64,000 nt of DNA from IMG/VR virus record IMGVR_UViG_3300028833_000069; one strand, 5' to 3'. The position numbers were made by a program, and so were the translations under genes. How positions within the stretch are numbered: position 1 is the first letter of the stretch; each line of letters opens with the position of its first letter. The notes beneath the pieces were generated by a model. The model was given only the letters and a program-made list of their open reading frames with translations, was not told the origin of the DNA and did not search any database. This document shows, piece after piece, positions 4,979-48,745 of the stretch. The stretch comes from a virus. Its lineage: Duplodnaviria > Heunggongvirae > Uroviricota > Caudoviricetes.

Positions 4979-6431
4979 TTAAAATTAAACAAGAACATGT
5001 TAAAATAATAGAAGCTGTATTAACAGCATTCTCTAAAGAAGTTTTTACAACTTCATATGGGTCTATTACACCTTCTTCATATAAATCACCAACCCATTCT
5101 CTAGTTTTAAAATTATATCCTGACCAGTTCATTGAAGCTGGAAGTAATTTACATTCTCCCGCACCAAAACAGTTTCTATATAATATATAATAAGGAGTAG
5201 TAAGTACATCCTTTAAATATTTTAATTCAGTACTTAATGCAATAGATGCTCTAAACAAAGCAGAGCCACCACCTGGAAGTACACCACCTCTTAAAGCAGC
5301 TCTTGTAGCACCAACAGCATCTTCTACTCTGTCTAATCTTTCTTTAACTTCTATTTCAGAATATCCTCCAACATAAATAGTCGCAATACCTGCTGTAAAA
5401 TTAGCAAGTCTTTTTCTCTGAAATTCTAAATCAGCTTCTTCAAGATTTCCTTTTTCTAAAAGTCCTTGGATAGCATTTACTTTTTCAGTAATAGCTTCCT
5501 CATTACTTTTATATCCAACAAAAGTACAAGTATCAGCAGTAGCAATTACTTTATCACAATAAAGTGTTTCTCCAAGAATATCTTTAATATCAGAAAGCAG
5601 AATACTTCTCTGAATACCAAAGTTAGGTGCTACTACCATACAAGAATCTAATTTATGTAAGTTATTTAAAAGATTTATTTTTATCTCAGAGTCAAAATCA
5701 GGAGCAATTAGCAACAGAGCCTTTTTCTTTCTGAGAGCTTCATTAGCTACCTCAGCAACTTTAGTTATCTCACTAATCTTTACATCTGAGATGTATACCA
5801 TTACATTTTGAAGTACACATGTATTCTCAGCAGTATTTACAAATCTTGAATCAAAATAACCATTGTCAAATTGAAAGCCTTCTGAAAATTCAATACCATC
5901 TGAGTTTGTCTTAGATTTCTCAAATTTAACAATCCCATTCTTACCTACTTTCTTGAAAGCATCTGCTACAAGTGTACCAATTTTAATATCATTATTGGCT
6001 GAAAGAGTTGCTACCTTAACAAGGTCTTTTTCAGTAATATCTCTTTTATATTCTTTCAACCAATTAACCACTTTTTCACAATCTTCTTGTAAATCTCTTT
6101 GGATTTGAATAGGATTTTCCCTACTATCTGCAAGAAGCTTTACAATTTCCCTAGAAAGAATAGTAGCAGTAGTACTACCATCACCAACATCACTAGATGT
6201 TTTCCTAGAAATATCTCTCACTGCATCAATACCCATTTGTACATAAGGGTCTTCATGAGTTACATAAGTAGCTACTGTACTACCATCTTTAGTGACATGT
6301 AAATGTCTACCAAGTTTAATCATTACATTCCTACCACTTGGTCCATAAGTAGCAGCTACACAATCAGAAACAAGATTAACACCTTTAATCAAGTTCTTTT
6401 TACATTCATCATTAAATTGTACATGTTCCAT
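4971..6431 (-). CDS. GroEL-like chaperonin (Cpn60 family)
   Basis: 486 aa. GDGSTTATIL matches the GroEL GDGTTTATVL ATP-binding motif. TYGPSGRNVMI and LPGGG segments are also present. Confidence 0.75.
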   Translation of the reverse strand: MEHVQFNDECKKNLIKGVNLVSDCVAATYGPSGRNVMIKLGRHLHVTKDGSTVATYVTHEDPYVQMGIDAVRDISRKTSSDVGDGSTTATILSREIVKLLADSRENPIQIQRDLQEDCEKVVNWLKEYKRDITEKDLVKVATLSANNDIKIGTLVADAFKKVGKNGIVKFEKSKTNSDGIEFSEGFQFDNGYFDSRFVNTAENTCVLQNVMVYISDVKISEITKVAEVANEALRKKKALLLIAPDFDSEIKINLLNNLHKLDSCMVVAPNFGIQRSILLSDIKDILGETLYCDKVIATADTCTFVGYKSNEEAITEKVNAIQGLLEKGNLEEADLEFQRKRLANFTAGIATIYVGGYSEIEVKERLDRVEDAVGATRAALRGGVLPGGGSALFRASIALSTELKYLKDVLTTPYYILYRNCFGAGECKLLPASMNWSGYNFKTREWVGDLYEEGVIDPYEVVKTSLENAVNTASIILTCSCLILNA

Positions 6432-7822: not shown

Positions 7823-8641
7823 TCATAATTCAATTGGATTACATTTAGCTAACTCCATCTTCATTTTTAAATCATTTATATGAAATTTTATTAACTTATC
7901 AACAGTTGATTTTAAATATTCAACAGGATAAGTTGCTTTTGGTTTCATATTTCTAACATGCACTATCTCTAATTTATCTATTTCCAAAGTTGGGTCTAAA
8001 TTCTGTAAACACCAAGCATATATAGATAACTGTAATTGATAATGAATTCCATTTACATCAGGTAGAGTGTTGAGAGGATACCTCATGTTCTTTGTTTTCA
8101 TTCTACCTGTATCAAATCTACCTTTAAAAGATATTTTGTCAACATCTTTCCAATCAATTATGGAAATATGTTTACCTTGTTTAACAACCAAATCTGCCAC
8201 ACCTACTATTGTGTAGTCTCCTATATTTACTTCCATTTTAAATTCTGGAAATAATCCAGACTCTGTAGTTAGGAAGTTGTCTACTTGACAAACAGGAAGT
8301 TTTGCAATACCGAAAGTATTTTGTAGAATTGTAACATCTTTTTTAAACATTTGTTCAATAGCTTCGTGTGTAGCTATACCAGCTGCTTTAGCTTCTTCAT
8401 TAGTATCTTTCCATTCTTTATTTATCTTTTCTAAAGAATCTTCATAAGCTTCTTTACCAACTTCAGCTATATACATAGGCAATATTCTTTTACTCCTTAA
8501 AAGACCAGTCTTAATTGCTGCAAACCTTTCTGGTTCCATTAACTTTTCTAAAGTTTTATAAGCAGCCCAAAACTCACCATCAAAACAGTGATATTGCTGA
8601 AGTAATACAGTTGTTGCAATTCTATTTTCTTCCATTATCAT
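7823..8641 (-). CDS. PD-(D/E)xK-type nuclease (RecB/Cas4/YqaJ-like)
   Basis: 272 aa. GVADLVV...IIDWKD and QLQLSIYA (QxxxY) motifs are typical of RecB-family nucleases. Confidence 0.45.
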   Translation of the reverse strand: MIMEENRIATTVLLQQYHCFDGEFWAAYKTLEKLMEPERFAAIKTGLLRSKRILPMYIAEVGKEAYEDSLEKINKEWKDTNEEAKAAGIATHEAIEQMFKKDVTILQNTFGIAKLPVCQVDNFLTTESGLFPEFKMEVNIGDYTIVGVADLVVKQGKHISIIDWKDVDKISFKGRFDTGRMKTKNMRYPLNTLPDVNGIHYQLQLSIYAWCLQNLDPTLEIDKLEIVHVRNMKPKATYPVEYLKSTVDKLIKFHINDLKMKMELAKCNPIEL

Positions 8642-9240: not shown

Positions 9241-9312
9241 TACACCTAGAATACCCCACTAATTAAAAAAATCTAATACTGTTGTAAGATTCATCTTTGT
9301 TATTTTCTCTAG

Positions 9313-9384
9313 AGCACCCTCCCAGAATCGAACTGAGATCTTTGGGTTACAAAGCCAAGGTAATAACCATTATACTAAGAGTGC
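9313..9384 (-). tRNA. tRNA-Thr(UGU)
   Basis: Cloverleaf with acceptor GCACTCT/AGGGTGC, T-loop TTCGATT and anticodon loop TTTGTAA. The anticodon stem has one mismatch. Confidence 0.55.
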
Positions 9385-9393
9385 ATAAATGTG

Positions 9394-9465
9394 CTGGCAG
9401 TACTGGAATCGAACCAGTATTGAGTGGTTAACAGCCACCTGTAATAACCTTTATACTAACTACCA
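9394..9465 (-). tRNA. tRNA-Asn(GUU)
   Basis: Acceptor TGGTAGT/ACTGCCA, anticodon stem GGTGG/CCACT, loop CTGTTAA, T-arm ACTGG-TTCGATT-CCAGT. Confidence 0.65.
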
Positions 9466-9471
9466 ATAAAG

Positions 9472-9547
9472 TGGATCTAGAGGAGACTCGAACCCTCAAC
9501 CTGCTGGTTGCAAACCAGCTGCTCTAGCCAATTGGAGCTATAGACCC
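9472..9547 (-). tRNA. tRNA-Ala(UGC)
   Basis: Acceptor GGGTCTA/TAGATCC, D-arm GCTC..GAGC, anticodon stem GCTGG/CCAGC, loop TTTGCAA. Confidence 0.65.
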
Positions 9548-9552
9548 AAAAG

Positions 9553-9626
9553 TAGTCTGGCTTGGATTTGAACCAAGGACCTCCATCTTATCAGGATGAC
9601 AATCTAACCAACTGATATACCAGACT
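9553..9626 (-). tRNA. tRNA-Ile(GAU)
   Basis: Perfect acceptor AGTCTGG/CCAGACT, anticodon loop CTGATAA, T-arm CTTGG-TTCAAAT-CCAAG. Confidence 0.7.
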
Positions 9627-9631
9627 ATGTG

Positions 9632-9706
9632 CGGTGTGTAGGGGATTTGAACCCCTGACTTCCTGCGTGACAGGCAGGCACTCTAGACCAGCTGAGCTAA
9701 CACACC
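9632..9706 (-). tRNA. tRNA-Asp(GUC)
   Basis: Acceptor GGTGTGT/ACACACC, anticodon stem CCTGC/GCAGG, loop CTGTCAC, T-arm AGGGG-TTCAAAT-CCCCT. Confidence 0.7.
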
Positions 9707-9713
9707 ATATAAG

Positions 9714-9787
9714 ACACACTGATGAGATTTGAACTCATGAATAGCAGTTTTGCAGACTGCCCCCTTAGACCACTTGGGTACAGTGTG
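9714..9787 (-). tRNA. tRNA-Cys(GCA)
   Basis: Acceptor CACACTG/CAGTGTG, anticodon stem GCAGT/ACTGC, loop CTGCAAA, T-arm ATGAG-TTCAAAT-CTCAT. Confidence 0.65.
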
Positions 9788-9790
9788 ATG

Positions 9791-9873
9791 TGGGAGTTGA
9801 GTGAGTCGAACACCCAGAGGCTAAGCCAAATGATTTACAGTCATCCCTGCTACCACTTACAGAATAAACTCCC
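9791..9873 (-). tRNA. tRNA-Tyr(GUA), class II
   Basis: Acceptor GGGAGTT/AACTCCC, anticodon loop CTGTAAA, long variable arm TGGCTTAGCCTCT, T-loop TTCGACT. Confidence 0.65.
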
Positions 9874-9880
9874 TAAATTG

Positions 9881-9953
9881 TCTGGATAGGAAGATTTGAA
9901 CTCCCGACCCCTTGCTCCCAAAGCAAGTGTTCTACCTACTGAACTACATCCAG
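9881..9953 (-). tRNA. tRNA-Pro(UGG)
   Basis: Acceptor CTGGATG/TATCCAG, D-arm GTTC..GAAC, anticodon stem CTTGC/GCAAG, loop TTTGGGA. Confidence 0.65.
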
Positions 9954-9959
9954 ATTATG

Positions 9960-10033
9960 TGCAGTAAAAAAGACTCGAACTCTCCCTCCCAGAATGGAAA
10001 TCTGGTGTGCTGAACCACTGACACTACTACTGC
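9960..10033 (-). tRNA. tRNA-Gly(UCC)
   Basis: Acceptor GCAGTAG/TTACTGC, anticodon stem CCAGA/TCTGG, loop TTTCCAT, T-loop TTCGAGT. Confidence 0.6.
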
Positions 10034-10038
10034 ATAAG

Positions 10039-10112
10039 AGCAATATAAAGGATTTGAACCCTCACTTCCTGACTGGCAGTCAAGTGTGCTAACCATTAAA
10101 CACTAATATTGC
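10039..10112 (-). tRNA. tRNA-Gly(GCC)
   Basis: Acceptor GCAATAT/ATATTGC, anticodon loop CTGCCAG, T-arm GAGGG-TTCAAAT-CCTTT. Confidence 0.55.
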
Positions 10113-10117
10113 ATAAG

Positions 10118-10148
10118 TTGCGGGGGTGGGACTCGAACCCACAACCTT
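10118..10148 (-). pseudogene. orphan 3' half of an initiator-like tRNA (T-arm GTGGG-TTCGAGT-CCCAC plus acceptor 3' strand CCCCGCA-A)
   Basis: The 3' end resembles bacterial tRNA-fMet (..CCCCCGCAAC). No matching 5' acceptor strand (TGCGGGG) exists nearby. The upstream sequence is the HNH coding region. Confidence 0.4.
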
Positions 10149-10380
10149 AAATTTTAGATTCTTGAAAATGATGCCATTGATGACAATTAGGACAAAGTAA
10201 AATACATTTATTCATTTCAGCTTTAATTTTGTCAAAGCTTAAATTACCTACTTCAGAACCACTAAAATCAAAAGATTTAGTAGAAGGATCTATATGATGA
10301 AACTATAGTATTTCAGGATGTTCTTTCCATCCACAAATAGCACAACATTTATCTTCTTTATACTTACGAAGAAAATTCAT
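10147..10380 (-). CDS. HNH homing endonuclease (77 aa) with one in-frame TAG
   Basis: Manual translation gives MNFLRKYKEDKCCAICGWKEHPEIL[TAG]FHHIDPSTKSF...NLS...LLCPNCHQWHHF. This is the CxxC...HH...N...CxxCH...H His-Me finger. TAG lies at 10303-10305. The gene sits between two Met-type tRNA sequences. Confidence 0.6.
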
Positions 10381-10453
10381 TCTTTTTTCTCTTCTTTTTC
10401 TGAAGTATTCTGTTCTTTTTCTCTAGTCTTTATACATAATTATAATTTTTAAG

Positions 10454-10525
10454 TTGCGCACGCAGGACTCGAACCTGGTCTAATGCTTATGAGACATTTA
10501 AGCTACCATTTGCTCCACCAGCGCA
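10454..10525 (-). tRNA. tRNA-Met(CAU) (elongator or Ile2-type; acceptor has 5 bp plus 2 mismatches)
   Basis: Anticodon stem AATGT/GCATT, loop CTCATAA, T-loop TTCGAGT, D-arm GAGC..GCTT. Confidence 0.5.
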
Positions 10526-14866: not shown

Positions 14867-14882
14867 ATCTATTATAATTTAG

Positions 14883-14972
14883 TAGCCCCTGAGGGACTCG
14901 AACCCTCACAACCTCCAACAGAAGGATATAACAGTTTTAGAGACTGGTGTACTGCCATTATACTAAGGGGCA
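14883..14972 (-). tRNA. suppressor tRNA with anticodon CUA (reads UAG), class II with long variable arm
   Basis: Anticodon stem CAGT/ACTG with a 7-nt loop CTCTAAA (U33, CUA at 34-36, A37). The anticodon is complementary to plus 14938-14940 tag. D-arm GTAT-AATGGCA-GTAC. Variable arm of about 23 nt with a CCTTC/GGAGG stem. T-arm GAGGG-TTCGAGT-CCCTC. Acceptor GCCCCT/AGGGGC with a 1:72 mismatch. Confidence 0.6.
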
Positions 14973-38243: not shown

Positions 38244-38578
38244 AATTCATAGTATCATTACAGAGCGTTGGAGATGTTATCACTAACAGTTCTTCTGAAG
38301 TATTTGTTATTGCAGGAGATGCTCATGATAAGAAACAAATAATCAATGTTTGTAAATCTTTTATTGAGCAGGAAGGTAGTTCTGGAATTGGTGGTGAATG
38401 TACAGTTAAACTTTTAGAAAGAAAAGAACTTCTTGCACATCCATACAGACATGGAATTACTGTTGAGAAATATAAAGGTTTACCTGGTCCATTTATAGTT
38501 ATAGATATTGATTGGAACAGAGAAATGTCTATAGAATGGATAAAAGGTCACTTTGATATAATTGAAACAATAGTATGA
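38230..38578 (+). CDS. paralog family member 2 (LQSVGDVITNSSSEVFVI)
   Basis: Track ORF 38189..38578. The likely start is MKFIVSLQ at 38230. Confidence 0.5.
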
Positions 38579-39009
38579 AATCTCTATTTATTATTCCTAT
38601 ACAAAGTGTATCTGATATAATAACAAACAGCTCTTCTGAAATGTTTGTTGCTATTGCACCAAAAGATAGTAATTATAGTGTTTTTATCATTGAAAAAATT
38701 CTTGAAGATATTCATAAAGAAGATCGAAAGAAGGTTGAAGATTATTACAAGTCCTGTAATAATTGGCAACAGACATTAGATTACATGGATACTACTAGAC
38801 TTGATTCTGGAAGTGGAGATGGTGGGGAATGTGACATTGAGGTACTCACATGGAAAGAAATTTCTCATTATATTAGAAAATGTAATAGGTCTAAATATGA
38901 TAAAAAGAATGGAGTTTATCTTAAAATTGAAATAGATCATAATAGAAAAAGGTCTATTGATTGGATAAGAAATAACTTAGATGTTGTTTATTTTGAAGAT
39001 CATTCATAA
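38575..39009 (+). CDS. paralog family member 3 (IQSVSDIITNSSSEMFVA)
   Basis: The C-terminus shares NR..SI.WI with member 2. Confidence 0.5.
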   Translation: MKSLFIIPIQSVSDIITNSSSEMFVAIAPKDSNYSVFIIEKILEDIHKEDRKKVEDYYKSCNNWQQTLDYMDTTRLDSGSGDGGECDIEVLTWKEISHYIRKCNRSKYDKKNGVYLKIEIDHNRKRSIDWIRNNLDVVYFEDHS

Positions 39010-39893
39010 TGAAAGACTTTACTCATTTTGGTGTTAAGCAAAGGAAATTTCCAGAATATAACTATAATGCTATATGGACTAATTTGAAAACAATAAGGTT
39101 AGGTAACGGCTATGCAAAAGAGCTACCACCTAATTGTGCAGAATTCTATGATGTTTCATTAGGTACTAAGTGTAATCTGGAATGTCCTTTCTGTTATACT
39201 AACGCTCTACATACTGGGGAGTTCTATAAAGATGTTTGTGAAAAAGCTAAAAGATTTTTTGGAATGATGTCTAACAATCAAAAGCCATTTCAAATAGCTA
39301 TTGGTAGTCAGGGAGAACCTACTATTCATCCAGAATTTATTGCTTTTTTACAGACTATTTATGAACTTAGGATTGTGCCTAACTATACTACTAATGGTAT
39401 TACTTTAGCTTCTGGTAATAAAGAGTTATTAGATGCTACAGAGAAGTACTGTGGTGGTGTAGCAGTATCTGCAAATACTTGGAATCCTACTATTAACAAT
39501 ATTTGGAAACAGGCAGTGGAAAACTTGATGAAGATTGATATAAATATCAATTTACATTATGTTATTTCAGACAAAGAATCTGTTGATAGGTTTATTAGGG
39601 AGGTATATCCATATGCAGATAATATTTTGTACTTTGTATTACTTCCCTTGATGAATTCAGGAAGAAGTACAAGTAAATACACAGAGGATGCTTTTGAGTA
39701 TCTTCTTTCAAAAGATTTAGATTGGTCTAAAATTGCTTTTGGTGCTCATTTCTATGACTTACTTAAAAAGCAAGATAAACTTAAATGCTGGTTATACCCA
39801 CCTGAAAGTTTGTCAAAAAATCTAATTCTTGGTGATAAAATAACAATAACAAAGAGTTCTTTTCATAAAGAACCTATTTGGCAAGAAGAATGA
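39009..39893 (+). CDS. radical SAM protein
   Basis: CNLECPFC (C-x3-C-x2-C) cluster near the N-terminus. 294 aa. Confidence 0.55.
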   Translation: MKDFTHFGVKQRKFPEYNYNAIWTNLKTIRLGNGYAKELPPNCAEFYDVSLGTKCNLECPFCYTNALHTGEFYKDVCEKAKRFFGMMSNNQKPFQIAIGSQGEPTIHPEFIAFLQTIYELRIVPNYTTNGITLASGNKELLDATEKYCGGVAVSANTWNPTINNIWKQAVENLMKIDININLHYVISDKESVDRFIREVYPYADNILYFVLLPLMNSGRSTSKYTEDAFEYLLSKDLDWSKIAFGAHFYDLLKKQDKLKCWLYPPESLSKNLILGDKITITKSSFHKEPIWQEE

Positions 39894-40717
39894 AATATAA
39901 TTTTAAAGCAAAAGAAACTACTGAAGGTATTATTGCATTCATAAAAGCATGGTTTGATCAAAATGGACCAGGATGTAATGCAGTAGTTGGTATTTCTGGA
40001 GGTAAAGATTCTACTATTGTAGCAAAACTTTGTGTTGAAGCTCTTGGTAGTGACAGAGTTATAGGAGTAATGCTTCCTAATAATCATCAACATGATTTAG
40101 ATGTTGCTAAAGAAGTATGTCAGTATTTAGGTATTAAAAGCCATTTAATTGACATTGCAAGCACTTTTGAAGATGTTAGATGTAGTATTGAGGATGAGAC
40201 TAAAAAGTCACTCTCAGAACAAGCTCTGACTAATCTTGCACCTAGAATCAGAATGACTTATCTTAGAGCATATGCACAGTGTTTTAATGGTAGACTGATC
40301 AACACTTCTAATCTTAGTGAAGATTGGGTTGGTTATGCAACTGTTGATGGTGACAGTGCAGGAGATATGTCTCCATTGTGTTTACTTACTGTACAAGAGG
40401 TAAAAGCAATTGGACATTATCTTGGTATACCTGATAAGTTTGTAGAGAAAGTTCCTGAAGATGGTCTTGTTGGTAAATCTGATGAAGACAATCTTGGTGT
40501 AACTTATGCTGCAATAGATAAGTGGATTAGAGAAGGTATTTGTGATGAAAAAGATCTTCAAGTAATTAACAAGAAATTCCAAGCAAATAAATTCAAGATT
40601 GTAAAGATGGCAGGTATGCCATGTTTCTGGCCTGAATATGATATGCTTTTTGAAGGAACTCCTGATAAGGAATTTGTTTCAAAACTTGGAATGGCACAAG
40701 ATCCTAGATTACAATGA
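39878..40717 (+). CDS. nadE: NH3-dependent NAD+ synthetase
   Basis: PP-loop VVGISGGKDSTIVAKL, then TRMTYLRAYA...GTSN-like and GDMSPLCLLTVQEV segments as in NadE. Confidence 0.7.
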   Translation: MARRMKYNFKAKETTEGIIAFIKAWFDQNGPGCNAVVGISGGKDSTIVAKLCVEALGSDRVIGVMLPNNHQHDLDVAKEVCQYLGIKSHLIDIASTFEDVRCSIEDETKKSLSEQALTNLAPRIRMTYLRAYAQCFNGRLINTSNLSEDWVGYATVDGDSAGDMSPLCLLTVQEVKAIGHYLGIPDKFVEKVPEDGLVGKSDEDNLGVTYAAIDKWIREGICDEKDLQVINKKFQANKFKIVKMAGMPCFWPEYDMLFEGTPDKEFVSKLGMAQDPRLQ

Positions 40718-41259
40718 AAAAAGTTCTTATTATAATTGATTGCCAAAATGACTTCTGTAAAGAAGGTGGTGCTCTTGCAAATAAAGAATGTATTGGAGCA
40801 GTAGATAATCTTTGTAAAGATTTTAACAAAATCTGGGAAAAAGATATGACTGTTCTTGTTACAAGAGATACTCATCAAAGGAAATCTTATTTTGGAACTG
40901 TTGAAGGTAAACATTTACCAATTCTTCATTGTGTTCAAGATAGTGCAGGTTGGTGTTTAAGAGATGATCTTGCTGCTAAGCTTGATACACTTGGAGTTAA
41001 TTACACATATATTGACAAACCTACATTTGGATTTGATAGTTGGAAAGGTATTATTGGTGTTGTACCTTTTGACGGAATGGAAATTCATATTGTTGGAGTT
41101 TGTACTGATATTTGTGTAGTAACAAATGCTTTACTTTTGAAGACAGCATATCCTAGTGCAGAAGTATATGTACATACAGATTATACTGCTGGTACATCTA
41201 TTGAAGCACATACAGCTGCTATTAAGACAATGAAAAGTTGTCACATTAACTGTATATGA
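40714..41259 (+). CDS. pncA: nicotinamidase (isochorismatase family)
   Basis: LIIIDCQNDFC...GG, TRDTH and the catalytic Cys segment VGVCTDICV align with PncA. Confidence 0.65.
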   Translation: MKKVLIIIDCQNDFCKEGGALANKECIGAVDNLCKDFNKIWEKDMTVLVTRDTHQRKSYFGTVEGKHLPILHCVQDSAGWCLRDDLAAKLDTLGVNYTYIDKPTFGFDSWKGIIGVVPFDGMEIHIVGVCTDICVVTNALLLKTAYPSAEVYVHTDYTAGTSIEAHTAAIKTMKSCHINCI

Positions 41260-41450
41260 GTGATAAAGTAAATAATGGTTGCACAGTGAGCTTAACACCA
41301 TTTATGCTAATTTTCATTCTATTCTTTATAGCTAAATGCTTTAAGTTAATAGAATGGAGTTGGTGGTGGGTGTTTAGCCCATTGTGGATACCTACACTTA
41401 TTCTTCTTGTAATATTTATAGTTTACATACTATTAAAATGCTTTCTGTAA
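41256..41450 (+). CDS. small membrane protein
   Basis: 64-aa hydrophobic ORF. Confidence 0.3.
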   Translation: MSDKVNNGCTVSLTPFMLIFILFFIAKCFKLIEWSWWWVFSPLWIPTLILLVIFIVYILLKCFL

Positions 41451-42271
41451 ATAACATACCTGTAAAGGTTGAGCATTTCCAAGATAATACACAAAAAATT
41501 AACTTACCTGAATTTGAAAGTAATGTTTTCAATATTAAATGGAAATATTCAAATGATGAAGAGTTAGTTACACTTGTATATATTTGTGGTTATCTTAGAG
41601 ATAATTATCAAGATTGTACAATAACCTTGGAAATGTTATATGTTCCTAATGCCAGAATGGATAGAGTAGAAGAAAGAGGTGATGTATTTACCTTAAAGTA
41701 TTTCTGCAATATTATTAACAGTTTACAATTTGAAAGTGTAACAGTATTTGATACTCATTCAAAAGTAACTGATGCTCTGGTAGATAGGATGAACAAAATA
41801 TCTACTGAAGAACTATTACAAAAAGTACTTGACATTATACATGTTGGCTATTTTGATAATAAGTTTAAAAGTATGACTATAGTATTCCCTGATAGAGGTG
41901 CTTATGATAGATACAGTACTCTTGAAATTCTTAAACCTTTTAGAAAGATTATAGGAAATAAGTCAAGAGACTGGAAAACAGGCACTTTGCAAGATCAGGA
42001 GTTATATGGAGTAGATAATTTAGAAACAGGAGTTCCTGTACTAATTATTGATGACATATTATCTTCTGGTGGAACTGTTTGTAAAACAATTGCAAATATT
42101 AGGGAAGTTGTTAACTGCCCAATTTATGTATATGTTTCTCACTGTGAAAATAAGCTTATAGAAAATGATACAGAAAATTGGGAATACATACAGAAAAATG
42201 TAAATAAGTTATACACAACTAATGGGATTTACTCATGTGATTGTGAAAAAATTCAAAAAATTGTATGGTAA
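41438..42271 (+). CDS. PRPP-synthetase-like phosphoribosyltransferase (divergent Prs; alternatively an ADP-ribose pyrophosphokinase-like enzyme)
   Basis: YVPNARMDRVEERGD (compare Prs PYFGYARQDR), FDTHS (compare DLHA) and the PRPP-binding loop VLIIDDILSSGGT. The track ORF begins at 41384. Confidence 0.55.
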   Translation: MLSVNNIPVKVEHFQDNTQKINLPEFESNVFNIKWKYSNDEELVTLVYICGYLRDNYQDCTITLEMLYVPNARMDRVEERGDVFTLKYFCNIINSLQFESVTVFDTHSKVTDALVDRMNKISTEELLQKVLDIIHVGYFDNKFKSMTIVFPDRGAYDRYSTLEILKPFRKIIGNKSRDWKTGTLQDQELYGVDNLETGVPVLIIDDILSSGGTVCKTIANIREVVNCPIYVYVSHCENKLIENDTENWEYIQKNVNKLYTTNGIYSCDCEKIQKIVW

Positions 42272-43446
42272 ATGTAAATACTGCAAGTATGTTGGATAAT
42301 GATCTCTATAAGTTTAGCATGAGCTATGCTTATATGAAATTATTTCCAGAAGCAGAAGGTACATTTGAATTCTGTGATAGAAATAAAACAGTTTATACAA
42401 GTGAGTTTGTTCAAGCTCTTTCCTCAGAGCTGCATAAACTTGCTGAAAGAATGTTACTGTCAACAGAAAGAAGTTGGTGTGTTAAACACATACAGTATAT
42501 TCCTGAGTGGTATTGGGAATGGTTAGAATCTTTCTATTTCAATCCTAATCTTATTAAGGTCTCTCTTACTAAGGAAGGAATGTTGAATATAGCAGTAACT
42601 GATAAACTGTATAAGGTAACTTTGTATGAAGTACCAATTCTATACACAGTAGCAGAACTCTGCTATAAATTTTCTGGTACAGAATTGTCTCATGAGCAAT
42701 TCAAAGAGATAATTAGTAAGACAGAGAGTAAATGTAAGATTGCTGATGAAGCAGAAATGTTTTTCTCTGAATTTGGTACTAGAAGAAGATTCAGTTATGA
42801 AGTACAAGACATTGTAATTAAAACTTGTAAGAGTTGTTCTCACTGTGTTGGTACTTCTAATGTACATTTTGCAATGAAATATGACATGAAGCCTATTGGT
42901 ACTGTTGCACATGAGTGGGTTATGTTCCACGGTGCAATGTATGGCTACAATGAGGCTAATTACATGGCATATAAGAATTGGGTAAAGGTTTATGATGGTA
43001 ATCTTGGTATTGCCTTAACTGATACCTATACCTCTGATGTCTTTTTCAAGAATTTTTCTTTACAACATGCAAAATTGTTTGATGGTATAAGACAAGATTC
43101 TGGTGATGAAAAAGAATTTGTAGAGAAAGCTTTAGTAAAGTATAACGAGTTGGGAATCAATCCACTTACTAAAACTATTGTTTTCTCAAATGCTCTTGAT
43201 TTCCCAAAAGCTGCAACTATAGCAGAATACTGTAAAGGAAAGATAAAAGCTTCCTTTGGTATTGGTACAAATCTGACTAATGATATTGATGGTATAAAAC
43301 CACAAAATATTGTTATGAAACTTATGCAATGCAGAATGAACAACAAACAAAGTTGGATGCATTGTGTAAAAATTTCAGATGATAAAGGTAAGGTAATGGG
43401 AAATCCTGATGAAATTAAAACTGCCTTTTACAAATTAGGTCTATGA
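42265..43446 (+). CDS. pncB: nicotinate phosphoribosyltransferase
   Basis: Collinear with E. coli PncB: LDNDLYKFSM, FGTRRRFSYEVQD, VGTSN, GTVAHEW, LGIALTD, RQDSGDE, VFSNALD, SFGIGT, KPQNIVMKL. Confidence 0.75.
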   Translation: MVNVNTASMLDNDLYKFSMSYAYMKLFPEAEGTFEFCDRNKTVYTSEFVQALSSELHKLAERMLLSTERSWCVKHIQYIPEWYWEWLESFYFNPNLIKVSLTKEGMLNIAVTDKLYKVTLYEVPILYTVAELCYKFSGTELSHEQFKEIISKTESKCKIADEAEMFFSEFGTRRRFSYEVQDIVIKTCKSCSHCVGTSNVHFAMKYDMKPIGTVAHEWVMFHGAMYGYNEANYMAYKNWVKVYDGNLGIALTDTYTSDVFFKNFSLQHAKLFDGIRQDSGDEKEFVEKALVKYNELGINPLTKTIVFSNALDFPKAATIAEYCKGKIKASFGIGTNLTNDIDGIKPQNIVMKLMQCRMNNKQSWMHCVKISDDKGKVMGNPDEIKTAFYKLGL

Positions 43447-43928
43447 AAAATTTTCCAGTAGATTATGAAGGAAAAACCTACTGGATTAGTAGGTCTGTAG
43501 CTGTTGCAGGTTTCATCTTTAGAAAAGATAATAATGGTAATTTACTAGTACTTGCTAACAAAAGAGGACCAGGTTGTCCTGATAATGTTGGCAAGTGGGT
43601 ATGCCCATGTGGTTATCTTGACTATGGAGAAACCCTCAAGCAAGCTATTGTAAGAGAAATCCATGAAGAAACAGGAGTAACTATCCCAATAAGTATATTG
43701 AGACTGGTTAGAATTGATGATGTACCAGAAGGTAGACAAAATGTAACAATTGAGTTTATTGCTGATGCAGGTGTCTTAACTCCTGAATGTGTTGCTTTAT
43801 CTAAAGAATTCTGTGAAAAGGATGAAGTAGATGAAGTTATGTGGATGCCAGTAGCTAACATAGATGAGTATGAATGGGCATTTAATCATGATAAACTTAT
43901 TAAAGATTTTCAATGTTACCTAAAGTAG
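43443..43928 (+). CDS. Nudix hydrolase
   Basis: Nudix box GYLDYGETLKQAIVREIHEETGV. The gene ends on TAG at 43926-43928. Confidence 0.65.
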   Translation: MKNFPVDYEGKTYWISRSVAVAGFIFRKDNNGNLLVLANKRGPGCPDNVGKWVCPCGYLDYGETLKQAIVREIHEETGVTIPISILRLVRIDDVPEGRQNVTIEFIADAGVLTPECVALSKEFCEKDEVDEVMWMPVANIDEYEWAFNHDKLIKDFQCYLK

Positions 43929-44503
43929 CTCACCTATTTTTAACAGCAAAATGTTCAAATAATTGTCCAAAATGCTGTAACAACAATTACACTGTAGATG
44001 AGATTCCTTTCTTAACAGAAGAGGAATTCTCTACAGTGGAAACTGTTTGTTTAACAGGAGGAGAACCATTCCTTCTTGACAACCTAGAAGAAATAGTAAA
44101 TGTTATAAGACCACATGTCAGAAACATTTATGTATACACTTCAGGTACTGAATTATTATCTTATCTAGGAAAGCATGAGCTTCCCTTCATAAACGGCATT
44201 TCCTTTAGTCCTAAGAGCAGAAAAGATTGGGATAGTATAACTACACTAACCAAAAATATTATGCTCTTAAAAAGGATTTCTGAAAAGGATAATAGATTGT
44301 ATATATTCTTAAAACAAGAAGATAGAGCAAACTATACATTGGATCGTTTTGGTCCAAGACTAAGAACAATTGAGTATTTAGCAGATGCACTGAATGCTAA
44401 AATGTATTTTAGGACTTGGCTAGATGAGATAACTTCTCCTGATGGAGAAATCTTTAGAAGAATTAACTTAGAAGACATGAAGAAATGGAAAAAGAAAGAA
44501 TAG
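43913..44503 (+). CDS. small radical SAM protein (activase/QueE-like size)
   Basis: CSNNCPKC cluster and LTGGEPFL. 196 aa. Confidence 0.5.
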   Translation: MLPKVAHLFLTAKCSNNCPKCCNNNYTVDEIPFLTEEEFSTVETVCLTGGEPFLLDNLEEIVNVIRPHVRNIYVYTSGTELLSYLGKHELPFINGISFSPKSRKDWDSITTLTKNIMLLKRISEKDNRLYIFLKQEDRANYTLDRFGPRLRTIEYLADALNAKMYFRTWLDEITSPDGEIFRRINLEDMKKWKKKE

Positions 44504-45108
44504 CAATTTTTGGAGGTTCTTTTAATCCAATTCATAAGGGACATCTTGACATAATTAGCGCTCTTACTAATAGGATGTGCTTTATGGGTTCTTATTATTC
44601 AGAAGTTTGGGTAAGTGTTACACCACAAAACCCATTAAAACCTGAATCAGGTAATTTCTGGGATAGATTTAAGATGGTAAAAGATGCTCTAAATGATAGA
44701 TTCACTGGAAATGCTACATTTAAATATGTTGTTCCTACTTTTATCCAAGGTTGTACAAATCTAATCTTTATGTCTAATACTCTTAGAACTTTGAAAGAAG
44801 TTTATCCAGAGTATGAGTTTGAGCTTGTAATAGGAGCTGATTGTTTAGAGAGTTTTAATAAATGGCATGATTACCAGTATATTATTGATAATTTTGATAT
44901 TGTTATTATTGATCGAGAAGGTTATGTAACAGAAGTACCTAGTTATTTTAATAAAAGTAGAGTAACTCATTTAAAACTTAATAATACAATTAGTTCCACA
45001 CAAGTAAGAAATCTTATTAAAGAGAATAATCCTGAATGGGAAAAATTAGTTGTATCTTCAACAGTAAAAACAATTAAAGATAAAAAGCTATATGAATATA
45101 GTAAATAA
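44485..45108 (+). CDS. nadD: nicotinate-nucleotide adenylyltransferase
   Basis: IAIFGGSFNPIHKGHL is the (H/T)xGH nucleotidyltransferase motif at a NadD-like position. 207 aa. Confidence 0.65.
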   Translation: MEKERIAIFGGSFNPIHKGHLDIISALTNRMCFMGSYYSEVWVSVTPQNPLKPESGNFWDRFKMVKDALNDRFTGNATFKYVVPTFIQGCTNLIFMSNTLRTLKEVYPEYEFELVIGADCLESFNKWHDYQYIIDNFDIVIIDREGYVTEVPSYFNKSRVTHLKLNNTISSTQVRNLIKENNPEWEKLVVSSTVKTIKDKKLYEYSK

Positions 45109-45589
45109 AACAGGTAATTTATTAGATGCTACTACAGACATTATTATGCATCAAGTCAATGATGCAGGTGTAATGGGAAGTGGTGTTGCAGCAGCAATTG
45201 CTCATAAGTGGCCTTATGTGCAACAACAATACACAGTTGCTCAACAGCAAGGGCATCTTAAATTAGGAGAAATCATTATGTCTTGCACAAGTGAGTTTCC
45301 TGATAGTAAATGTCACCCATTAGTAGCTAATTTATGTGCTCAAGATTTGTATCAGAGAGAACACTCTTTCTTGAGTACAGGTATTCCTACAAGCTATGAT
45401 GCTTTGTGGATGTGTCTAACTAAACTTGCAAGATATTGTAAAGAGAATGGTTTTAGTACTATTGCTATGCCATATCTTATGAGTTCTTGTAGAGGTGGTG
45501 CTAATTGGAATGTAGTAATTACTATGGTTCAAGAAGCTTTTTATGATTTAGAAGGTACAATCGAGGTTTGGCAGTTGCCAGCCCACTAA
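45092..45589 (+). CDS. macro domain (ADP-ribose binding/processing) protein
   Basis: GNLLDATTDIIMHQVNDAGVMGSGVAAAI matches the macro-domain signature. Confidence 0.6.
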   Translation: MNIVNKTGNLLDATTDIIMHQVNDAGVMGSGVAAAIAHKWPYVQQQYTVAQQQGHLKLGEIIMSCTSEFPDSKCHPLVANLCAQDLYQREHSFLSTGIPTSYDALWMCLTKLARYCKENGFSTIAMPYLMSSCRGGANWNVVITMVQEAFYDLEGTIEVWQLPAH

Positions 45590-48652: not shown

Positions 48653-48728
48653 GACATCTTAGCTCAGTTGGTATTAGAGCACCTCACCTTTAATGAGGGG
48701 GTCCTGGGTTCAAATCCCAGAGGTGTCA
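48653..48728 (+). tRNA. tRNA-Lys(UUU) with unusual C at position 33
   Basis: Acceptor GACATCT/AGGTGTC, D-arm GCTC-AGTTGGTATTA-GAGC, perfect anticodon stem CCTCA/TGAGG, loop CCTTTAA, T-arm CTGGG-TTCAAAT-CCCAG. Confidence 0.55.
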
Positions 48729-48745
48729 CTAAAAATAAATATAAA

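What the first reader, a model, noticed from the sequence alone, without database searches (positions are those of the whole stretch)
41438..43446. Prs-like plus PncB pair: canonical PRPP route or an Adps/Namat-type ADPR-PP shortcut?
The PRTase at 41438-42271 keeps Prs landmarks (ARxDR-like VPNARMDRVEERGD, the DxHS-like FDTHS, the PRPP loop VLIIDDILSSGGT) but is very divergent from housekeeping Prs. It sits directly upstream of a PncB that is close to enterobacterial NaPRT. A divergent Prs next to an NAPRTase-family enzyme is also the layout of the ADPR-pyrophosphokinase/nicotinamide-ADPR-transferase pathway. Sequence alone cannot say which chemistry applies. The flanking PncA/NadD/NadE argue for the nicotinate route.
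Basis: inference. Interest (0 to 1): 0.6.

Follow-up and report, generated by a model that had tools for sequence, protein, structure and literature searches.

The report
Adps-clade kinase feeding phage PncB
A large gut or rumen phage carries a complete nicotinate-route NAD+ rebuilding operon in which the enzyme expected to make PRPP descends from the phage ADP-ribose pyrophosphokinase (Adps) family but is paired with an ordinary bacterial-type PncB, a hybrid of two known phage NAD+ strategies.

Summary
Both genes are real, overlap by 7 nt and evolve at the same rate (dN/dS 0.13).

**PncB (42265-43446)** is a canonical nicotinate phosphoribosyltransferase. It scores 411 bits on TIGR01514 (cut-off 270). 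Its closest solved relative is from Porphyromonas, not an enterobacterium. It lacks the Namat adenine clamp.

**The Prs-like protein (41438-42271)** is not a housekeeping Prs. It separates from class I and class III Prs with 100% bootstrap and nests among phage Adps-type proteins. Its nearest relatives (about 40% identity) sit almost invariably in PncA–Prs-like–Namat-like–NadE modules.

The layout is therefore a hybrid: an Adps-clade enzyme joined to PncB. Two lines of evidence favour PRPP → NaMN → NaAD → NAD+:

- An adenylyltransferase lies in 64 of 80 further PncB-type phage loci and in most of the 15 surveyed first, but in only 3 of 78 Namat-like-type loci.
- The window subclade alone has regained the Ser/Thr that binds the ribose-5-phosphate phosphate in true Prs (0 of 130 Namat-like-linked homologues have it). 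It has also lost the Adps donor-pocket residues.

Best reading: it supplies PRPP, probably from ribose-5-phosphate released from ADP-ribose by the adjacent Nudix. It could instead make ADPR-PP that the Nudix trims to PRPP; the net reaction is the same. This is a new variant of a known kind and needs biochemical testing.

The parts
39878..40717 (+). NadE, a single-domain NAD+ synthetase that amidates NaAD to NAD+. From its size (279 aa, no glutaminase domain) it is probably NH3-dependent.
   Evidence: PF02540 at 163 bits and TIGR00552 at 151.8 bits against a cut-off of 63.65. It overlaps the upstream radical-SAM gene by 16 nt and PncA by 4 nt. It is more similar to the NadE of PncA–Prs-like–Namat-like–NadE modules (188-260 bits) than to the NadE of most PncB-only clusters (36-74 bits).
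40714..41259 (+). PncA, a nicotinamidase of the isochorismatase fold, converting nicotinamide to nicotinate plus NH3.
   Evidence: PF00857 at 59.3 bits. The sequence shows IIDCQNDF, RDTH, HCVQDSAG, a Lys in IDKPTFG and GVCTDICV. From memory these correspond to the nicotinamidase catalytic and metal-binding motifs. A homologue sits directly upstream of nearly every related Prs-like gene.
41256..41450 (+). Small hydrophobic 64-aa ORF of unknown role, probably a membrane protein.
   Evidence: phrog_1374 at 50.7 bits. A 69-aa counterpart lies at the same position in L004 and L005, with 48% identity in L005.
41438..42271 (+). Prs-like pyrophosphokinase of the phage Adps-type clade. It carries a Prs-like PP loop (DDILSSGGTVCK). 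It is the proposed PRPP supplier for PncB.
   Evidence: - Profile and fold: TIGR01251 at 69.5 bits, below the 113 cut-off. The AlphaFold model has pLDDT 89.5 and a full-length Prs fold with TM 0.72-0.77.
- Similarity: 31-37% identity to Namat-linked phage proteins, 43% to P0003 and P0021, and 18-21% to E. coli, B. subtilis and human Prs.
- Phylogeny: trees.
- Residues: K175, R73, H107, D152, D205 and D206 are conserved. Ser210 matches E. coli Thr225.
- Selection: dN/dS 0.13.
42265..43446 (+). PncB, a canonical nicotinate phosphoribosyltransferase (nicotinate + PRPP to NaMN).
   Evidence: TIGR01514 at 410.9 bits against a cut-off of 269.55, with PF17767 and PF04095. The best solved match is 2im5 at 390 bits, 48% identity over 383 residues. 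The GTVAHEW, FGTRRR and SFGIGTNLTND motifs are present. There is no TRD-anchored Namat clamp. Its start overlaps the Prs-like stop by 7 nt.
43443..43928 (+). Nudix hydrolase, a predicted ADP-ribose-type pyrophosphatase. It would convert ADPR to AMP plus ribose-5-phosphate, or ADPR-PP to AMP plus PRPP.
   Evidence: PF00293 at 59.4 bits, with weak matches to the Nudix domain of bifunctional NMNAT/Nudix enzymes and to the ADPR-responsive repressor NtrR. It has a canonical Nudix box followed by a Pro 16 residues downstream. That Pro is conserved in the homologues found in other PncB clusters. Homologues accompany PncB in L020, L026-L029 and L034.
43913..44503 (+). Small radical-SAM-like protein (196 aa, CX3CX2C near the N-terminus). 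Its role in the cluster is unknown.
   Evidence: Weak PF04055 match (18.4 bits, below cut-off) and phrog_31524 and phrog_13987. It is conserved in the relatives at 68% identity with dN/dS 0.13-0.15.
44485..45108 (+). NadD-type nicotinate-mononucleotide adenylyltransferase (NaMN + ATP to NaAD).
   Evidence: PF01467 at 59.2 bits. TIGR00482 scores 105.3 bits, just under its 112.45 cut-off. It is the most divergent gene of the cluster, only 37% identical to the IMG/VR relative.
45092..45589 (+). Macro-domain protein. It is either an ADPR-derivative hydrolase or phosphatase (Adpp-like), or a DarG-like ADP-ribosyl glycohydrolase.
   Evidence: PF01661 at 29.4 bits, the DarG macro model at 64.6 bits (cut-off 250), PADLOC DarG at 62.1 bits, and phrog_335 'phosphatase' at 93.5 bits. 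Homologues lie between the Namat-like gene and NadE in many sister modules.

Best explanation
The pair belongs to a nine-gene operon at 39878-45589 with overlapping reading frames. The operon lets a large phage rebuild NAD+ from the debris of NAD+ cleavage, using the deamidated (Preiss-Handler) route.

**Steps shown by family membership**
- PncA turns nicotinamide into nicotinate.
- PncB joins nicotinate to PRPP to give NaMN.
- NadD adenylylates NaMN to NaAD.
- NadE amidates NaAD to NAD+.

**Shown by phylogeny.** The Prs-like enzyme is not a borrowed housekeeping Prs. It is a descendant of the phage Adps-type family, whose partner is normally a Namat-like enzyme.

**Inferred**
- In this lineage the Namat-like partner was replaced by PncB plus a Nudix and NadD.
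- The kinase was retained to supply PRPP.
- It now most likely accepts ribose-5-phosphate. It has regained the phosphate-binding Ser/Thr of true Prs enzymes and lost the residues that form the Adps donor-ATP pocket.
- The ribose-5-phosphate comes from ADP-ribose cut by the adjacent Nudix.
- The Macro protein probably trims modified ADP-ribose to ADP-ribose.

**Net reaction:** ADP-ribose + nicotinamide + ATP → NAD+.
For: **Cluster composition and selection**
- Every gene overlaps the next by 4-19 nt.
- The Prs-like gene and PncB are the two most conserved genes of the cluster against its relatives. Both are 81% identical, with dN/dS 0.13 and 0.13-0.14.

**Ancestry of the Prs-like enzyme**
- tblastn finds 1421 phage records. 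The best hits are Namat-linked genes at 31-37% identity.
- The best solved cellular Prs scores only 40 bits.
- Neighbour-joining trees split all Prs from all Adps-type proteins at 100% bootstrap.
- The window family groups with P0092 and P0106 at 76%. That group lies inside the PncA–Prs-like–Namat-like–NadE clade at 78%.

**PncB makes a mononucleotide**
- An adenylyltransferase lies in the flanks of 64 of 80 further PncB-type viral loci and in most of loci L020-L034.
- It lies in only 3 of 78 Namat-like-type viral loci.
- The second Prs-like + PncB lineage, L039, recruited a non-homologous NadR-type adenylyltransferase.

**Substrate switch of the kinase**
- PP-loop position 6 corresponds to E. 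coli Thr225. That side chain binds the phosphate modelled in the R5P phosphate site (PMC6332680).
- This position is Ser or Thr in the window family, L039, L038 and every Prs examined. It is never Ser or Thr in 130 unique Namat-like-linked homologues.
- ICP1 Adps donor-pocket residues Cys197, Cys215 and Phe221 (PMC13586617) correspond to Gln187, Leu208 and Val214 here.

**Nudix.** It carries a Pro 16 residues after the Nudix box, the ADP-ribose pyrophosphatase hallmark (from memory).
Against: - No assay exists. SpβL1 Adps did not make PRPP (10.1101/2024.02.11.579819), so its descendants may not either.
- Overall the protein is no closer to Prs profiles than validated Adps are. TIGR01251 gives 69.5 bits for the window protein, 98 for ICP1 Adps and 70 for BPS10C.
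- The three Ser/Thr lineages form one subclade at 76% bootstrap, so the correlation may rest on a single evolutionary event.
- Phe221 is not universal among Namat-like-linked homologues: 22 of 130 have L, M, V or A.
- L039 has no recognisable Nudix in its flanks.
- The trees are neighbour-joining, not maximum likelihood.
- The Nudix substrate is inferred only from weak profile matches and one motif.
Confidence: 0.5

Rival explanations
1. The kinase is still a true Adps (ADP-ribose + ATP → ADPR-PP + AMP). The adjacent Nudix then cuts ADPR-PP into AMP + PRPP, which PncB uses. The net reaction and the rest of the pathway are identical to the best explanation. Only the order of the kinase and the Nudix is swapped.
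For: - Its phylogenetic position is inside the Adps-type clade.
- The catalytic Lys and the acceptor residues shared with ICP1 Adps are all conserved: K175, R73, H107, D152, D205 and D206.
- There is a chemical precedent: NudC converts ADPR-PP to PRPP in vitro (10.1101/2024.02.11.579819).
- The Nudix gene directly follows PncB.
- No change of specificity needs to be assumed.
Against: - The subclade-specific return of Ser/Thr at the R5P-phosphate position, and the loss of three donor-pocket residues, are left unexplained.
- Homologues of this Nudix travel with PncB clusters that have no Prs-like gene at all, so the Nudix is not dedicated to ADPR-PP.
- L039 has the kinase and PncB but no detectable Nudix.
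Confidence: 0.25
2. This is an ADPR-PP shortcut with a nicotinate acceptor. The kinase makes ADPR-PP and PncB itself transfers nicotinate onto it, giving NaAD directly. NadE then amidates NaAD.
For: - The kinase and PncB are translationally coupled and co-evolve at the same rate.
- A related type II phosphoribosyltransferase, KVP40 Nampt, can use ADPR-PP as a poor substrate.
- The sister modules (PncA–Prs-like–Namat-like–NadE, without NadD) look as if they perform exactly this chemistry with a Namat-like enzyme.
Against: - PncB scores above the equivalog cut-off for canonical NaPRT.
- It is 48% identical to a cellular enzyme.
- It has no adenine clamp and no insertion.
- NadD would be superfluous. 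Yet an adenylyltransferase accompanies PncB in both Prs-like + PncB lineages and in most PncB-type phage loci, while it is nearly absent from Namat-like-type loci.
Confidence: 0.08
3. This is plain Preiss-Handler salvage with a host-derived housekeeping Prs. The PRTase is simply a fast-evolving copy of a bacterial or archaeal Prs picked up as an auxiliary metabolic gene.
For: - It has the Prs fold and Prs catalytic motifs.
- Its PP loop resembles archaeal class III Prs: DDILSSGGTV against DDILSTGGTI/L.
- Phage pncB–nadD–nadE clusters are already described as auxiliary metabolic genes (PMC11662467).
Against: - It separates from all class I and class III Prs at 100% bootstrap.
- It is 43% identical to Namat-like-linked proteins but only 18-21% identical to Prs.
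- It scores 26-40 bits against archaeal Prs, whereas B. subtilis Prs scores 119-141 bits against the same proteins.
- None of the other PncB-type viral loci examined (13, 80) carries any Prs-like gene.
Confidence: 0.03
4. The kinase pyrophosphorylates some other ribose derivative. Candidates are ADPR-1''-phosphate-derived species, ribose-1,5-bisphosphate, or a product of the neighbouring radical-SAM-like enzyme. It would then feed a reaction not considered here.
For: - The hairpin (TLQDQEL) and PP loop of the window family are unlike both Adps and Prs.
- A conserved small radical-SAM-like gene of unknown role sits inside the cluster.
- A Macro protein implies that modified ADP-ribose species are handled.
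Against: - Nothing positive supports it.
- All other genes are accounted for by the nicotinate route.
- PncB needs PRPP.
Confidence: 0.1

Closest known systems
NARP1 (Adps + Namat) of phages Bas63, SpβL1 and ICP1 (Osterman et al. preprint 10.1101/2024.02.11.579819; Adps structure PMC13586617; Namat structure PMC12774641)
   Same: - The kinase belongs to the same phage clade as validated Adps.
- It has a similar length (277 aa, against 280 aa for ICP1 Adps).
- It lacks the C-terminal regulatory helices.
- It keeps the catalytic Lys and the acceptor residues.
- It sits immediately upstream of a type II phosphoribosyltransferase.
- The likely purpose is also the same: rebuilding NAD+ after NADase-based defence.
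   Different: - The partner is PncB, not Namat. It has no NAMPT_N domain and no GSxΦxΦxΦTRD clamp.
- The base is nicotinate, not nicotinamide.
- NadD and NadE are needed.
- The PP loop carries Ser210 and Val214 where Adps have G/Y/K/R and Phe.
- 97% of the Adps clade has a Namat neighbour, so this gene is among the exceptions.
Phage-encoded Preiss-Handler clusters (pncB–nadD–nadE) of gut jumbo phages (Li et al. 2024, PMC11662467)
   Same: - It has the same enzymes: PncB, NadD and NadE, here with PncA and a Nudix as well.
- It comes from the same gut or rumen habitat.
- 56 of 80 further IMG/VR loci show the order PncA > PncB > NadD > NadE.
   Different: - Those clusters have no Prs-like gene and rely on host PRPP.
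- The window adds an Adps-clade kinase, translationally coupled to PncB.
- The paper does not mention Prs or Adps.
NARP1-AP (Adps–Adpp–Namat, with a Macro-domain ADPR-1''-phosphate phosphatase; 10.64898/2026.01.28.702374)
   Same: A Macro-domain gene is part of the operon and matches the phage family phrog_335, which is annotated 'phosphatase'.
   Different: - The window Macro resembles DarG-type macrodomains most.
- Relatedness to Poa1p or Adpp was not tested.
- It lies at the end of a nicotinate-route cluster.
Class III (archaeal) PRPP synthases: M. jannaschii, S. solfataricus, T. volcanium
   Same: - It is short, with no allosteric C-terminal module.
- It has the K-x-RD-x-x-TG hairpin and a near-identical PP loop (DDILS[ST]GGT[VIL]).
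- These enzymes are the functional analogy for what the window enzyme is proposed to do.
   Different: - Only about 25% identity, with 26-40 bits by phmmer.
- It does not group with them in the trees.
- The PP-loop similarity is best read as convergence or reversion.

Membership tests
Adps (ADPR-PP synthetase of NARP1) | Falls in the phage clade that is separated from cellular Prs | tested here: met
   The split between Prs and Adps-type proteins has 100% bootstrap. The window protein is nested with Namat-linked Bacillus and Staphylococcus phage proteins at 86%. Validated ICP1 Adps lies further out but on the same side of the split.
Adps (ADPR-PP synthetase of NARP1) | A Namat homologue in the immediate neighbourhood (97% of the clade) | tested here: not met
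   The downstream gene is PncB. No Nampt or Namat homologue lies in the window cluster or in the flanks of its relatives.
Adps (ADPR-PP synthetase of NARP1) | Donor-ATP pocket and PP-loop signature (ICP1 Cys197, Cys215, Gly217, Phe221) | tested here: not met
   The window has Gln187, Leu208, Ser210 and Val214. Of 130 Namat-like-linked homologues, 129 keep a hydrophobic residue at the 197 position, 113 keep Cys at 215, none has Ser/Thr at 217, and 108 have Phe at 221.
Adps (ADPR-PP synthetase of NARP1) | Catalytic Lys185 and acceptor residues Arg87, His121, Asp161, Asp212 and Asp213 | tested here: met
   K175, R73, H107, D152, D205 and D206 are invariant in alignment A1. These residues are shared with Prs, so this does not discriminate.
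Adps (ADPR-PP synthetase of NARP1) | Converts ADP-ribose + ATP to ADPR-PP and does not use ribose-5-phosphate | not testable with these tools
   This needs an enzyme assay.
PRPP synthase (Prs, EC 2.7.6.1) | Reaches the curated score of the Prs family model | tested here: not met
   TIGR01251 scores 69.5 bits against a cut-off of 113. All equivalog models are far below their cut-offs.
PRPP synthase (Prs, EC 2.7.6.1) | Hydroxyl residue in the R5P-binding loop that holds the 5-phosphate (E. coli Thr225) | tested here: met
   Ser210 in DDILSSGGTVCK aligns with Thr225 in DDMIDTGGTLCK.
PRPP synthase (Prs, EC 2.7.6.1) | Two-domain Prs fold | tested here: met
   The AlphaFold model has pLDDT 89.5. Foldseek top hits are human PRPS1 and T. 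volcanium Prs, with TM 0.72-0.77 over the full length.
PRPP synthase (Prs, EC 2.7.6.1) | Groups with cellular Prs in a phylogeny | tested here: not met
   It is separated from class I and class III Prs at 100% bootstrap.
PncB (nicotinate phosphoribosyltransferase, TIGR01514 type) | Equivalog model score above the cut-off, with the NAPRTase_N + NAPRTase architecture | tested here: met
   TIGR01514 scores 410.9 bits against 269.55. PF17767 scores 88.2 bits and PF04095 200.2 bits.
PncB (nicotinate phosphoribosyltransferase, TIGR01514 type) | Conserved His of the ATP-coupled phospho-enzyme (GT-x-AHE motif; its role is recalled from the Salmonella enzyme) | tested here: met
   GTVAHEW is present, with His at position 216. 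It aligns with GTHPHEW of 2im5. Whether it is phosphorylated cannot be tested.
Namat (nicotinamide ADPR-transferase) | Nampt-type core (NF006629, NAMPT_N) and the adenine-clamp helix motif G-S-X-Φ-X-Φ-X-Φ-T-R-D | tested here: not met
   The window PncB has no NF006629 or PF18127 hit and no TRD-anchored motif. All seven Namat proteins linked to classical Adps carry GS[YF][TS][YF].. before TRD.
Phage Preiss-Handler NAD+ cluster (PMC11662467) | pncB, nadD and nadE clustered on a phage genome | tested here: met
   All three genes lie within 39878-45108, together with PncA. The window is phage-like: it has 24 tRNAs and relatives in IMG/VR.
NARP1-AP phosphatase Adpp | Macro-domain protein in the operon, related to Poa1p, that dephosphorylates ADPR-1''-phosphate | tested here: inconclusive
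   The Macro domain is present and matches phrog_335 'phosphatase'. The best named relatives are DarG-type macrodomains. No Adpp sequence was available for comparison.

The most novel reading that the evidence does not exclude
The window enzyme is a natural revertant. It would be an Adps-lineage kinase that switched back to ribose-5-phosphate when its Namat-like partner was replaced by PncB–Nudix–NadD. That would pinpoint the residues that set ADP-ribose versus ribose-5-phosphate specificity: PP-loop Ser/Thr against K/R/Y/G, and the Phe221 and Cys197 pocket.

By the same logic its many sister modules (PncA–Adps-like–Namat-like–NadE, without NadD) would form an undescribed deamidated NARP1. In that pathway nicotinate is joined to ADPR-PP to give NaAD directly. 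These modules occur in at least 130 distinct phage and gut Clostridia loci. The bacterial loci were not checked for prophages or mis-binned phage contigs.
Probability: 0.35. Interest if true: 0.8.

Novelty: new variant of a known kind. Interest (0 to 1): 0.6.

Why it matters
NAD+ depletion is a major bacterial anti-phage strategy, and phage NAD+ rebuilding pathways (NARP1, 2 and 3) are an active field. This locus matters in four ways.

- **The Adps family is not tied to Namat.** One branch has been rewired into the classical nicotinate pathway. This would be a route from ADP-ribose plus nicotinamide back to NAD+ of five core enzymes plus the Nudix, with a phage-owned PRPP supply that probably escapes regulation.
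- **It offers a natural experiment for substrate choice.** A handful of residues differ between this branch and 130 Namat-like-linked relatives. Swapping them could show what makes a Prs-fold enzyme choose ADP-ribose or ribose-5-phosphate.
- **It affects annotation.** A 'ribose-phosphate pyrophosphokinase' next to a 'nicotinate phosphoribosyltransferase' in phage genomes can mean three different chemistries.
- **The comparison exposed an unnoticed module.** A very common PncA–Adps-like–Namat-like–NadE module occurs in gut phages and Clostridia. It may be a deamidated version of NARP1.

Tried and rejected
- **Megablast against GenBank phages.** The cluster found nothing. The phage is known only from metagenomes.
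- **Looking for Adps among solved structures.** Neither the PDB sequence copy nor the Foldseek PDB library (to April 2026) shows an Adps entry, so no direct structural comparison was possible.
- **PHROG membership as a discriminator.** phrog_619 scores the window protein (193 bits) the same as E. coli Prs (193 bits), so it cannot separate Adps from Prs.
- **Individual ICP1 Adps residues as signatures.**
  - Phe92 and Phe223 are not conserved even among Namat-linked proteins.
  - Phe221 alone is imperfect: 22 of 130 exceptions.
- **More relatives of the second PncB-linked lineage.** A viral-contig scan with P0106 found none.
- **The 181-aa ORF of L039 as a hidden Nudix.** It has no Nudix box and no family hit.
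- **Host-derived housekeeping Prs.** Rejected on phylogeny.
- **PncB as a disguised Namat or Nampt.** Rejected on family models and motif.
- **Not attempted:**
  - a maximum-likelihood phylogeny, because no such program was available;
  - ligand docking or co-folding;
  - a metagenome-contig scan.


Full report
**1. Observation**

Both ORFs are present as described.

- The Prs-like gene runs 41438-42271 (277 aa). The ATG at 41438 agrees with the N-termini of the closest homologues.
- PncB runs 42265-43446 (393 aa). Its ATG overlaps the Prs-like stop codon.
- Pfam and NCBIfam confirm a weak Prs match: TIGR01251 at 69.5 bits against a cut-off of 113.
- They confirm a strong PncB match: TIGR01514 at 410.9 bits against a cut-off of 269.55.

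The pair lies in an unbroken chain of genes whose ends overlap by 4-19 nt:

| Gene | Coordinates |
|---|---|
| NadE | 39878-40717 |
| PncA | 40714-41259 |
| 64-aa hydrophobic ORF | 41256-41450 |
| Prs-like | 41438-42271 |
| PncB | 42265-43446 |
| Nudix | 43443-43928 |
| small radical-SAM-like protein | 43913-44503 |
| NadD | 44485-45108 |
| Macro domain | 45092-45589 |

The window is about 31% GC. It carries 24 tRNA genes. It has no near-identical GenBank phage. Relatives at 81-86% protein identity exist in IMG/VR and Logan contigs of up to 169 kb, with the same gene order.

Against those relatives the Prs-like gene and PncB are the two best conserved genes of the cluster. Both are 81% identical, with dN/dS 0.13 and 0.13-0.14. 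NadD is only 37% identical. The genes are therefore real and under purifying selection.

**2. What PncB is**

- The best solved relative is Porphyromonas gingivalis NaPRT (2im5): 390 bits and 48% identity over 383 residues.
- The proteobacterial enzymes score 196-241 bits. 'Close to enterobacterial NaPRT' is therefore imprecise.
- PncB keeps the GTVAHEW, FGTRRR and SFGIGTNLTND motifs.
- It does not hit the Nampt-type model NF006629, which every Namat tested here hits.
- It has nothing resembling the Namat adenine-clamp helix G-S-X-Φ-X-Φ-X-Φ-T-R-D (PMC12774641; test).

It is a canonical PncB.

**3. What the Prs-like protein is**

*Similarity to phage and cellular proteins*

- tblastn against GenBank phages finds 1421 records. 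The best are Bacillus phage genes at 31-37% identity (E 1e-28 to 1e-34).
- Each of the three top hits whose locus was inspected is followed by a 495-573 aa Nampt-like gene, which is the NARP1 layout.
- Validated ICP1 Adps (ORF228, the NrsA of PMC11559045 and the protein of the structure paper PMC13586617) is also a hit.
- The best solved cellular Prs scores only 40 bits. B. subtilis Prs scores 119-141 bits against the same archaeal enzymes.

*Phylogeny*

I built neighbour-joining trees with bootstrap. They held E. coli, B. subtilis and human Prs, six archaeal class III Prs, seven Namat-linked phage proteins and 60-120 metagenomic homologues. The E. coli sequence came from the genome.

| Grouping | Bootstrap |
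|---|---|
| All Prs against all phage-type proteins | 100% |
| Window family + P0092 + P0106 | 76% |
| That subclade inside the clade of its ~40%-identical relatives | 78% |
| That clade + Bacillus and Staphylococcus Namat-linked proteins | 86% |

ICP1, Sf14 and Pae01 branch further out. The window enzyme therefore descends from within the Adps-type radiation.

*Residues and fold*

- It shares the family's short length and lacks the C-terminal helices.
- It keeps the catalytic Lys (K175) and the acceptor residues R73, H107, D152, D205 and D206.
- The AlphaFold model is confident (pLDDT 89.5) and has a full-length Prs fold.

**4. The relatives and their neighbourhoods**

*Relatives of the Prs-like protein.* I surveyed 78 IMG/VR loci holding 35-42% identical relatives, and 76 bacterial loci.

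- The bacterial loci are mostly Lachnospiraceae, Ruminococcus and Oscillospiraceae genomes, many of them MAGs. I did not check them for prophages or mis-binned phage contigs.
- In essentially all of these loci the order is PncA > Prs-like > Nampt-family gene > (Macro) > NadE.
- In bacteria a Nudix gene sometimes precedes the module. In L018 it carries the NrtR winged-helix domain.
- The Nampt-family partners keep the start of the Namat clamp (GSFSFQC or GSFSMQC). Most then have a 9-40 residue insertion before TRD. One group has the classical G-A-Y-T-Y-Q-Y-V-T-R-D.

*Relatives of PncB.* From the PncB side I examined 95 viral loci.

- Fifteen came from the window PncB. Of these, 13 lack a Prs-like gene and the two window-family contigs have one.
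- Eighty came from the L039 PncB. None of these has a Prs-like gene.
- The dominant order is PncA > PncB > NadD > NadE (56 of 80), or variants with a Nudix.
- Such pncB–nadD–nadE clusters have already been described bioinformatically in gut jumbo phages (PMC11662467).
- Only the window family and one other contig combine a Prs-like gene with PncB. That contig is L039, ordered NadR-type adenylyltransferase > x > PncB > NadE > PncA > Prs-like.
- The two PncBs are only 41% identical.
- The window's PncA and NadE resemble those of the Namat-like-type modules. Its PncB, Nudix and NadD resemble those of the PncB-type modules.

The simplest history is that a PncA–kinase–Namat-like–NadE module had its Namat-like gene replaced by PncB, Nudix and NadD.

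**5. Which chemistry**

Two comparative results bear on this.

*(a) Adenylyltransferase distribution.*

| Locus type | Loci with an adenylyltransferase in the flanks |
|---|---|
| Further PncB-type viral loci | 64 of 80 |
| PncB-type loci L020-L034 | most |
| Both Prs-like + PncB lineages | both, using non-homologous enzymes |
| Namat-like-type viral loci | 3 of 78 |
| Bacterial loci | 3 of 76 |

The last two counts come from an HMM search. A partner that makes a mononucleotide needs an adenylyltransferase. One that makes a dinucleotide does not. This argues that the window PncB makes NaMN from PRPP.

*(b) The PP loop.*

- In E. coli Prs the R5P-binding loop is Asp224-Lys231. The Thr225 side chain holds the phosphate modelled in the R5P phosphate site (PMC6332680).
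- In ICP1 Adps the same loop (Cys215-Ser220) instead organises the donor ATP. Ile194, Val195, Cys197, Cys215, Phe221 and Phe223 form the donor pocket (PMC13586617).
- The table compares the 130 unique Namat-like-linked homologues with the window:

| Position (ICP1 numbering) | 130 Namat-like-linked homologues | Window |
|---|---|---|
| Thr225-equivalent (Gly217) | K, R, Y, F, G or A; never S or T | Ser210 |
| Cys215 | Cys in 113 | Leu208 |
| Phe221 | Phe in 108 | Val214 |
| Cys197 | hydrophobic in 129 | Gln187 |

- L039 has Ser, Met and His at the 217, 221 and 197 positions and keeps Cys at 215.
- L038 has Thr, Ile and Ile at the 217, 215 and 221 positions and keeps Leu at 197.
- Every Prs examined, including four archaeal ones, has Thr.
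- The window loop DDILSSGGTVCK is nearly that of E. coli (DDMIDTGGTLCK) and of archaeal Prs (DDILSTGGTI).

The only members of the family without a Namat-like partner have regained the R5P-phosphate ligand and lost the Adps donor pocket. This favours a return to ribose-5-phosphate as acceptor.

**6. Where the ribose-5-phosphate comes from**

- The Nudix next to PncB has a canonical Nudix box followed by a Pro 16 residues downstream. From memory this is the ADP-ribose pyrophosphatase hallmark. The Pro is conserved in its divergent homologues in other PncB clusters.
- It also has weak matches to the ADPR-hydrolysing Nudix domain of NadM-type enzymes.
- ADP-ribose → AMP + R5P, followed by R5P → PRPP, would recycle the product of NADase-based defence.
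- The reverse order is chemically possible. Osterman et al. showed that NudC converts ADPR-PP to PRPP. The net reaction is the same, so the operon's function does not depend on which order is used.
- The Macro protein matches the phage 'phosphatase' family phrog_335 and DarG-type macrodomains.
- A Macro-domain ADPR-1''-phosphate phosphatase is a known NARP1 accessory (10.64898/2026.01.28.702374).

**7. Verdict and limits**

The kinase is of Adps descent and the transferase is a plain PncB.

| Reading | My probability |
|---|---|
| Kinase now makes PRPP from ribose-5-phosphate | about 0.5 |
| Kinase is still an Adps and the Nudix trims its product to PRPP | about 0.25 |
| PncB uses ADPR-PP directly | under 0.1 |

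Limits of the analysis:

- No biochemistry has been done.
- The trees are neighbour-joining.
- The three Ser/Thr lineages may represent one evolutionary event.
- The Nudix and Macro substrates are inferred.
- Neighbour detection used my own ORF calls and phmmer within ±8-10 kb.

I found no paper in the searchable library that links nicotinate, PncA or NadE with ADPR-PP chemistry.

The pair is a new variant of known systems. The sister modules are an untested lead of higher potential interest.

Noticed in passing
L043-L120 (IMG/VR) and L201-L276 (bacterial genomes); also L006, L009, L014, L016 and L018: The module PncA > Adps-like > Namat-like > (Macro) > NadE is very common and rarely has an adenylyltransferase nearby (3 of 78 viral and 3 of 76 bacterial loci). 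It occurs in gut and rumen phage contigs. It also occurs in Lachnospiraceae, Ruminococcus and Oscillospiraceae genomes, some preceded by a Nudix gene that in L018 carries the NrtR domain. The Namat-like partner keeps GSFSFQC or GSFSMQC, then has a 9-40 aa insertion before TRD. One group keeps the classical GAYTYQYVTRD. This looks like a deamidated NARP1 (nicotinate + ADPR-PP → NaAD → NAD+). I found no description of it in the searchable literature.
   Followed up: partly
window 14882-14972 (-) and 48653-48729 (+): Two suppressor-type tRNAs are present: anticodon CTA (reads UAG) and anticodon TTA (reads UAA). They are among 24 tRNA genes, including an array of 11 at 9312-10525. Long standard-code ORFs are sparse in 1-35 kb and in 45.6-56 kb. 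Part of the genome may use a recoded stop codon. The NAD cluster itself reads cleanly in code 11.
   Followed up: no
window 37647-39009 (+): Three tandem paralogous genes (198, about 112-129, and 144 aa) share an N-terminal motif QSV(S/G)D(I/V)ITNSSSE(L/V/M)FV. They have no PHROG hit. They lie directly upstream of a 294-aa radical-SAM protein (39009-39893) that gives weak matches to the prokaryotic viperin (pVip) models. The arrangement resembles substrates or partners of a radical-SAM enzyme.
   Followed up: no
window 43913-44503 (+): A 196-aa radical-SAM-like protein (CX3CX2C at residues 14-21) is embedded between the Nudix and NadD. It is conserved in relatives at 68% identity with dN/dS 0.13-0.15. 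It has no obvious role in NAD+ synthesis.
   Followed up: partly
window 35936-37650 (+); L077, L078, L086, L095, L096, L101, L109, L116, L118: An RtcB RNA ligase and a small protein matching the PHROG 'tRNA amidotransferase' family (phrog_1460) sit just upstream of the NAD cluster. In nine related phage loci RtcB is inserted between the Adps-like and Namat-like genes. This suggests that RNA-repair and NAD+-repair counter-defence genes travel together.
   Followed up: no
L039 2458-8801: This is a second, independent Prs-like + PncB cluster. Its order is NadR-type adenylyltransferase > 181-aa unknown > PncB > NadE > PncA > Prs-like. Next to it lie genes with the Flavoprotein (PF02441) and DFP (PF04127) domains, which from memory are the CoaBC halves, so this phage may also encode coenzyme A biosynthesis steps.
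   Followed up: partly
window 4971-6431 (-), 31074-32936 (+), 7823-8641 (-): The window also encodes a GroEL-like chaperonin, a 620-aa SPFH/Band-7 protein and a PD-(D/E)XK nuclease. This is consistent with a large phage with many host-like functions.
   Followed up: no
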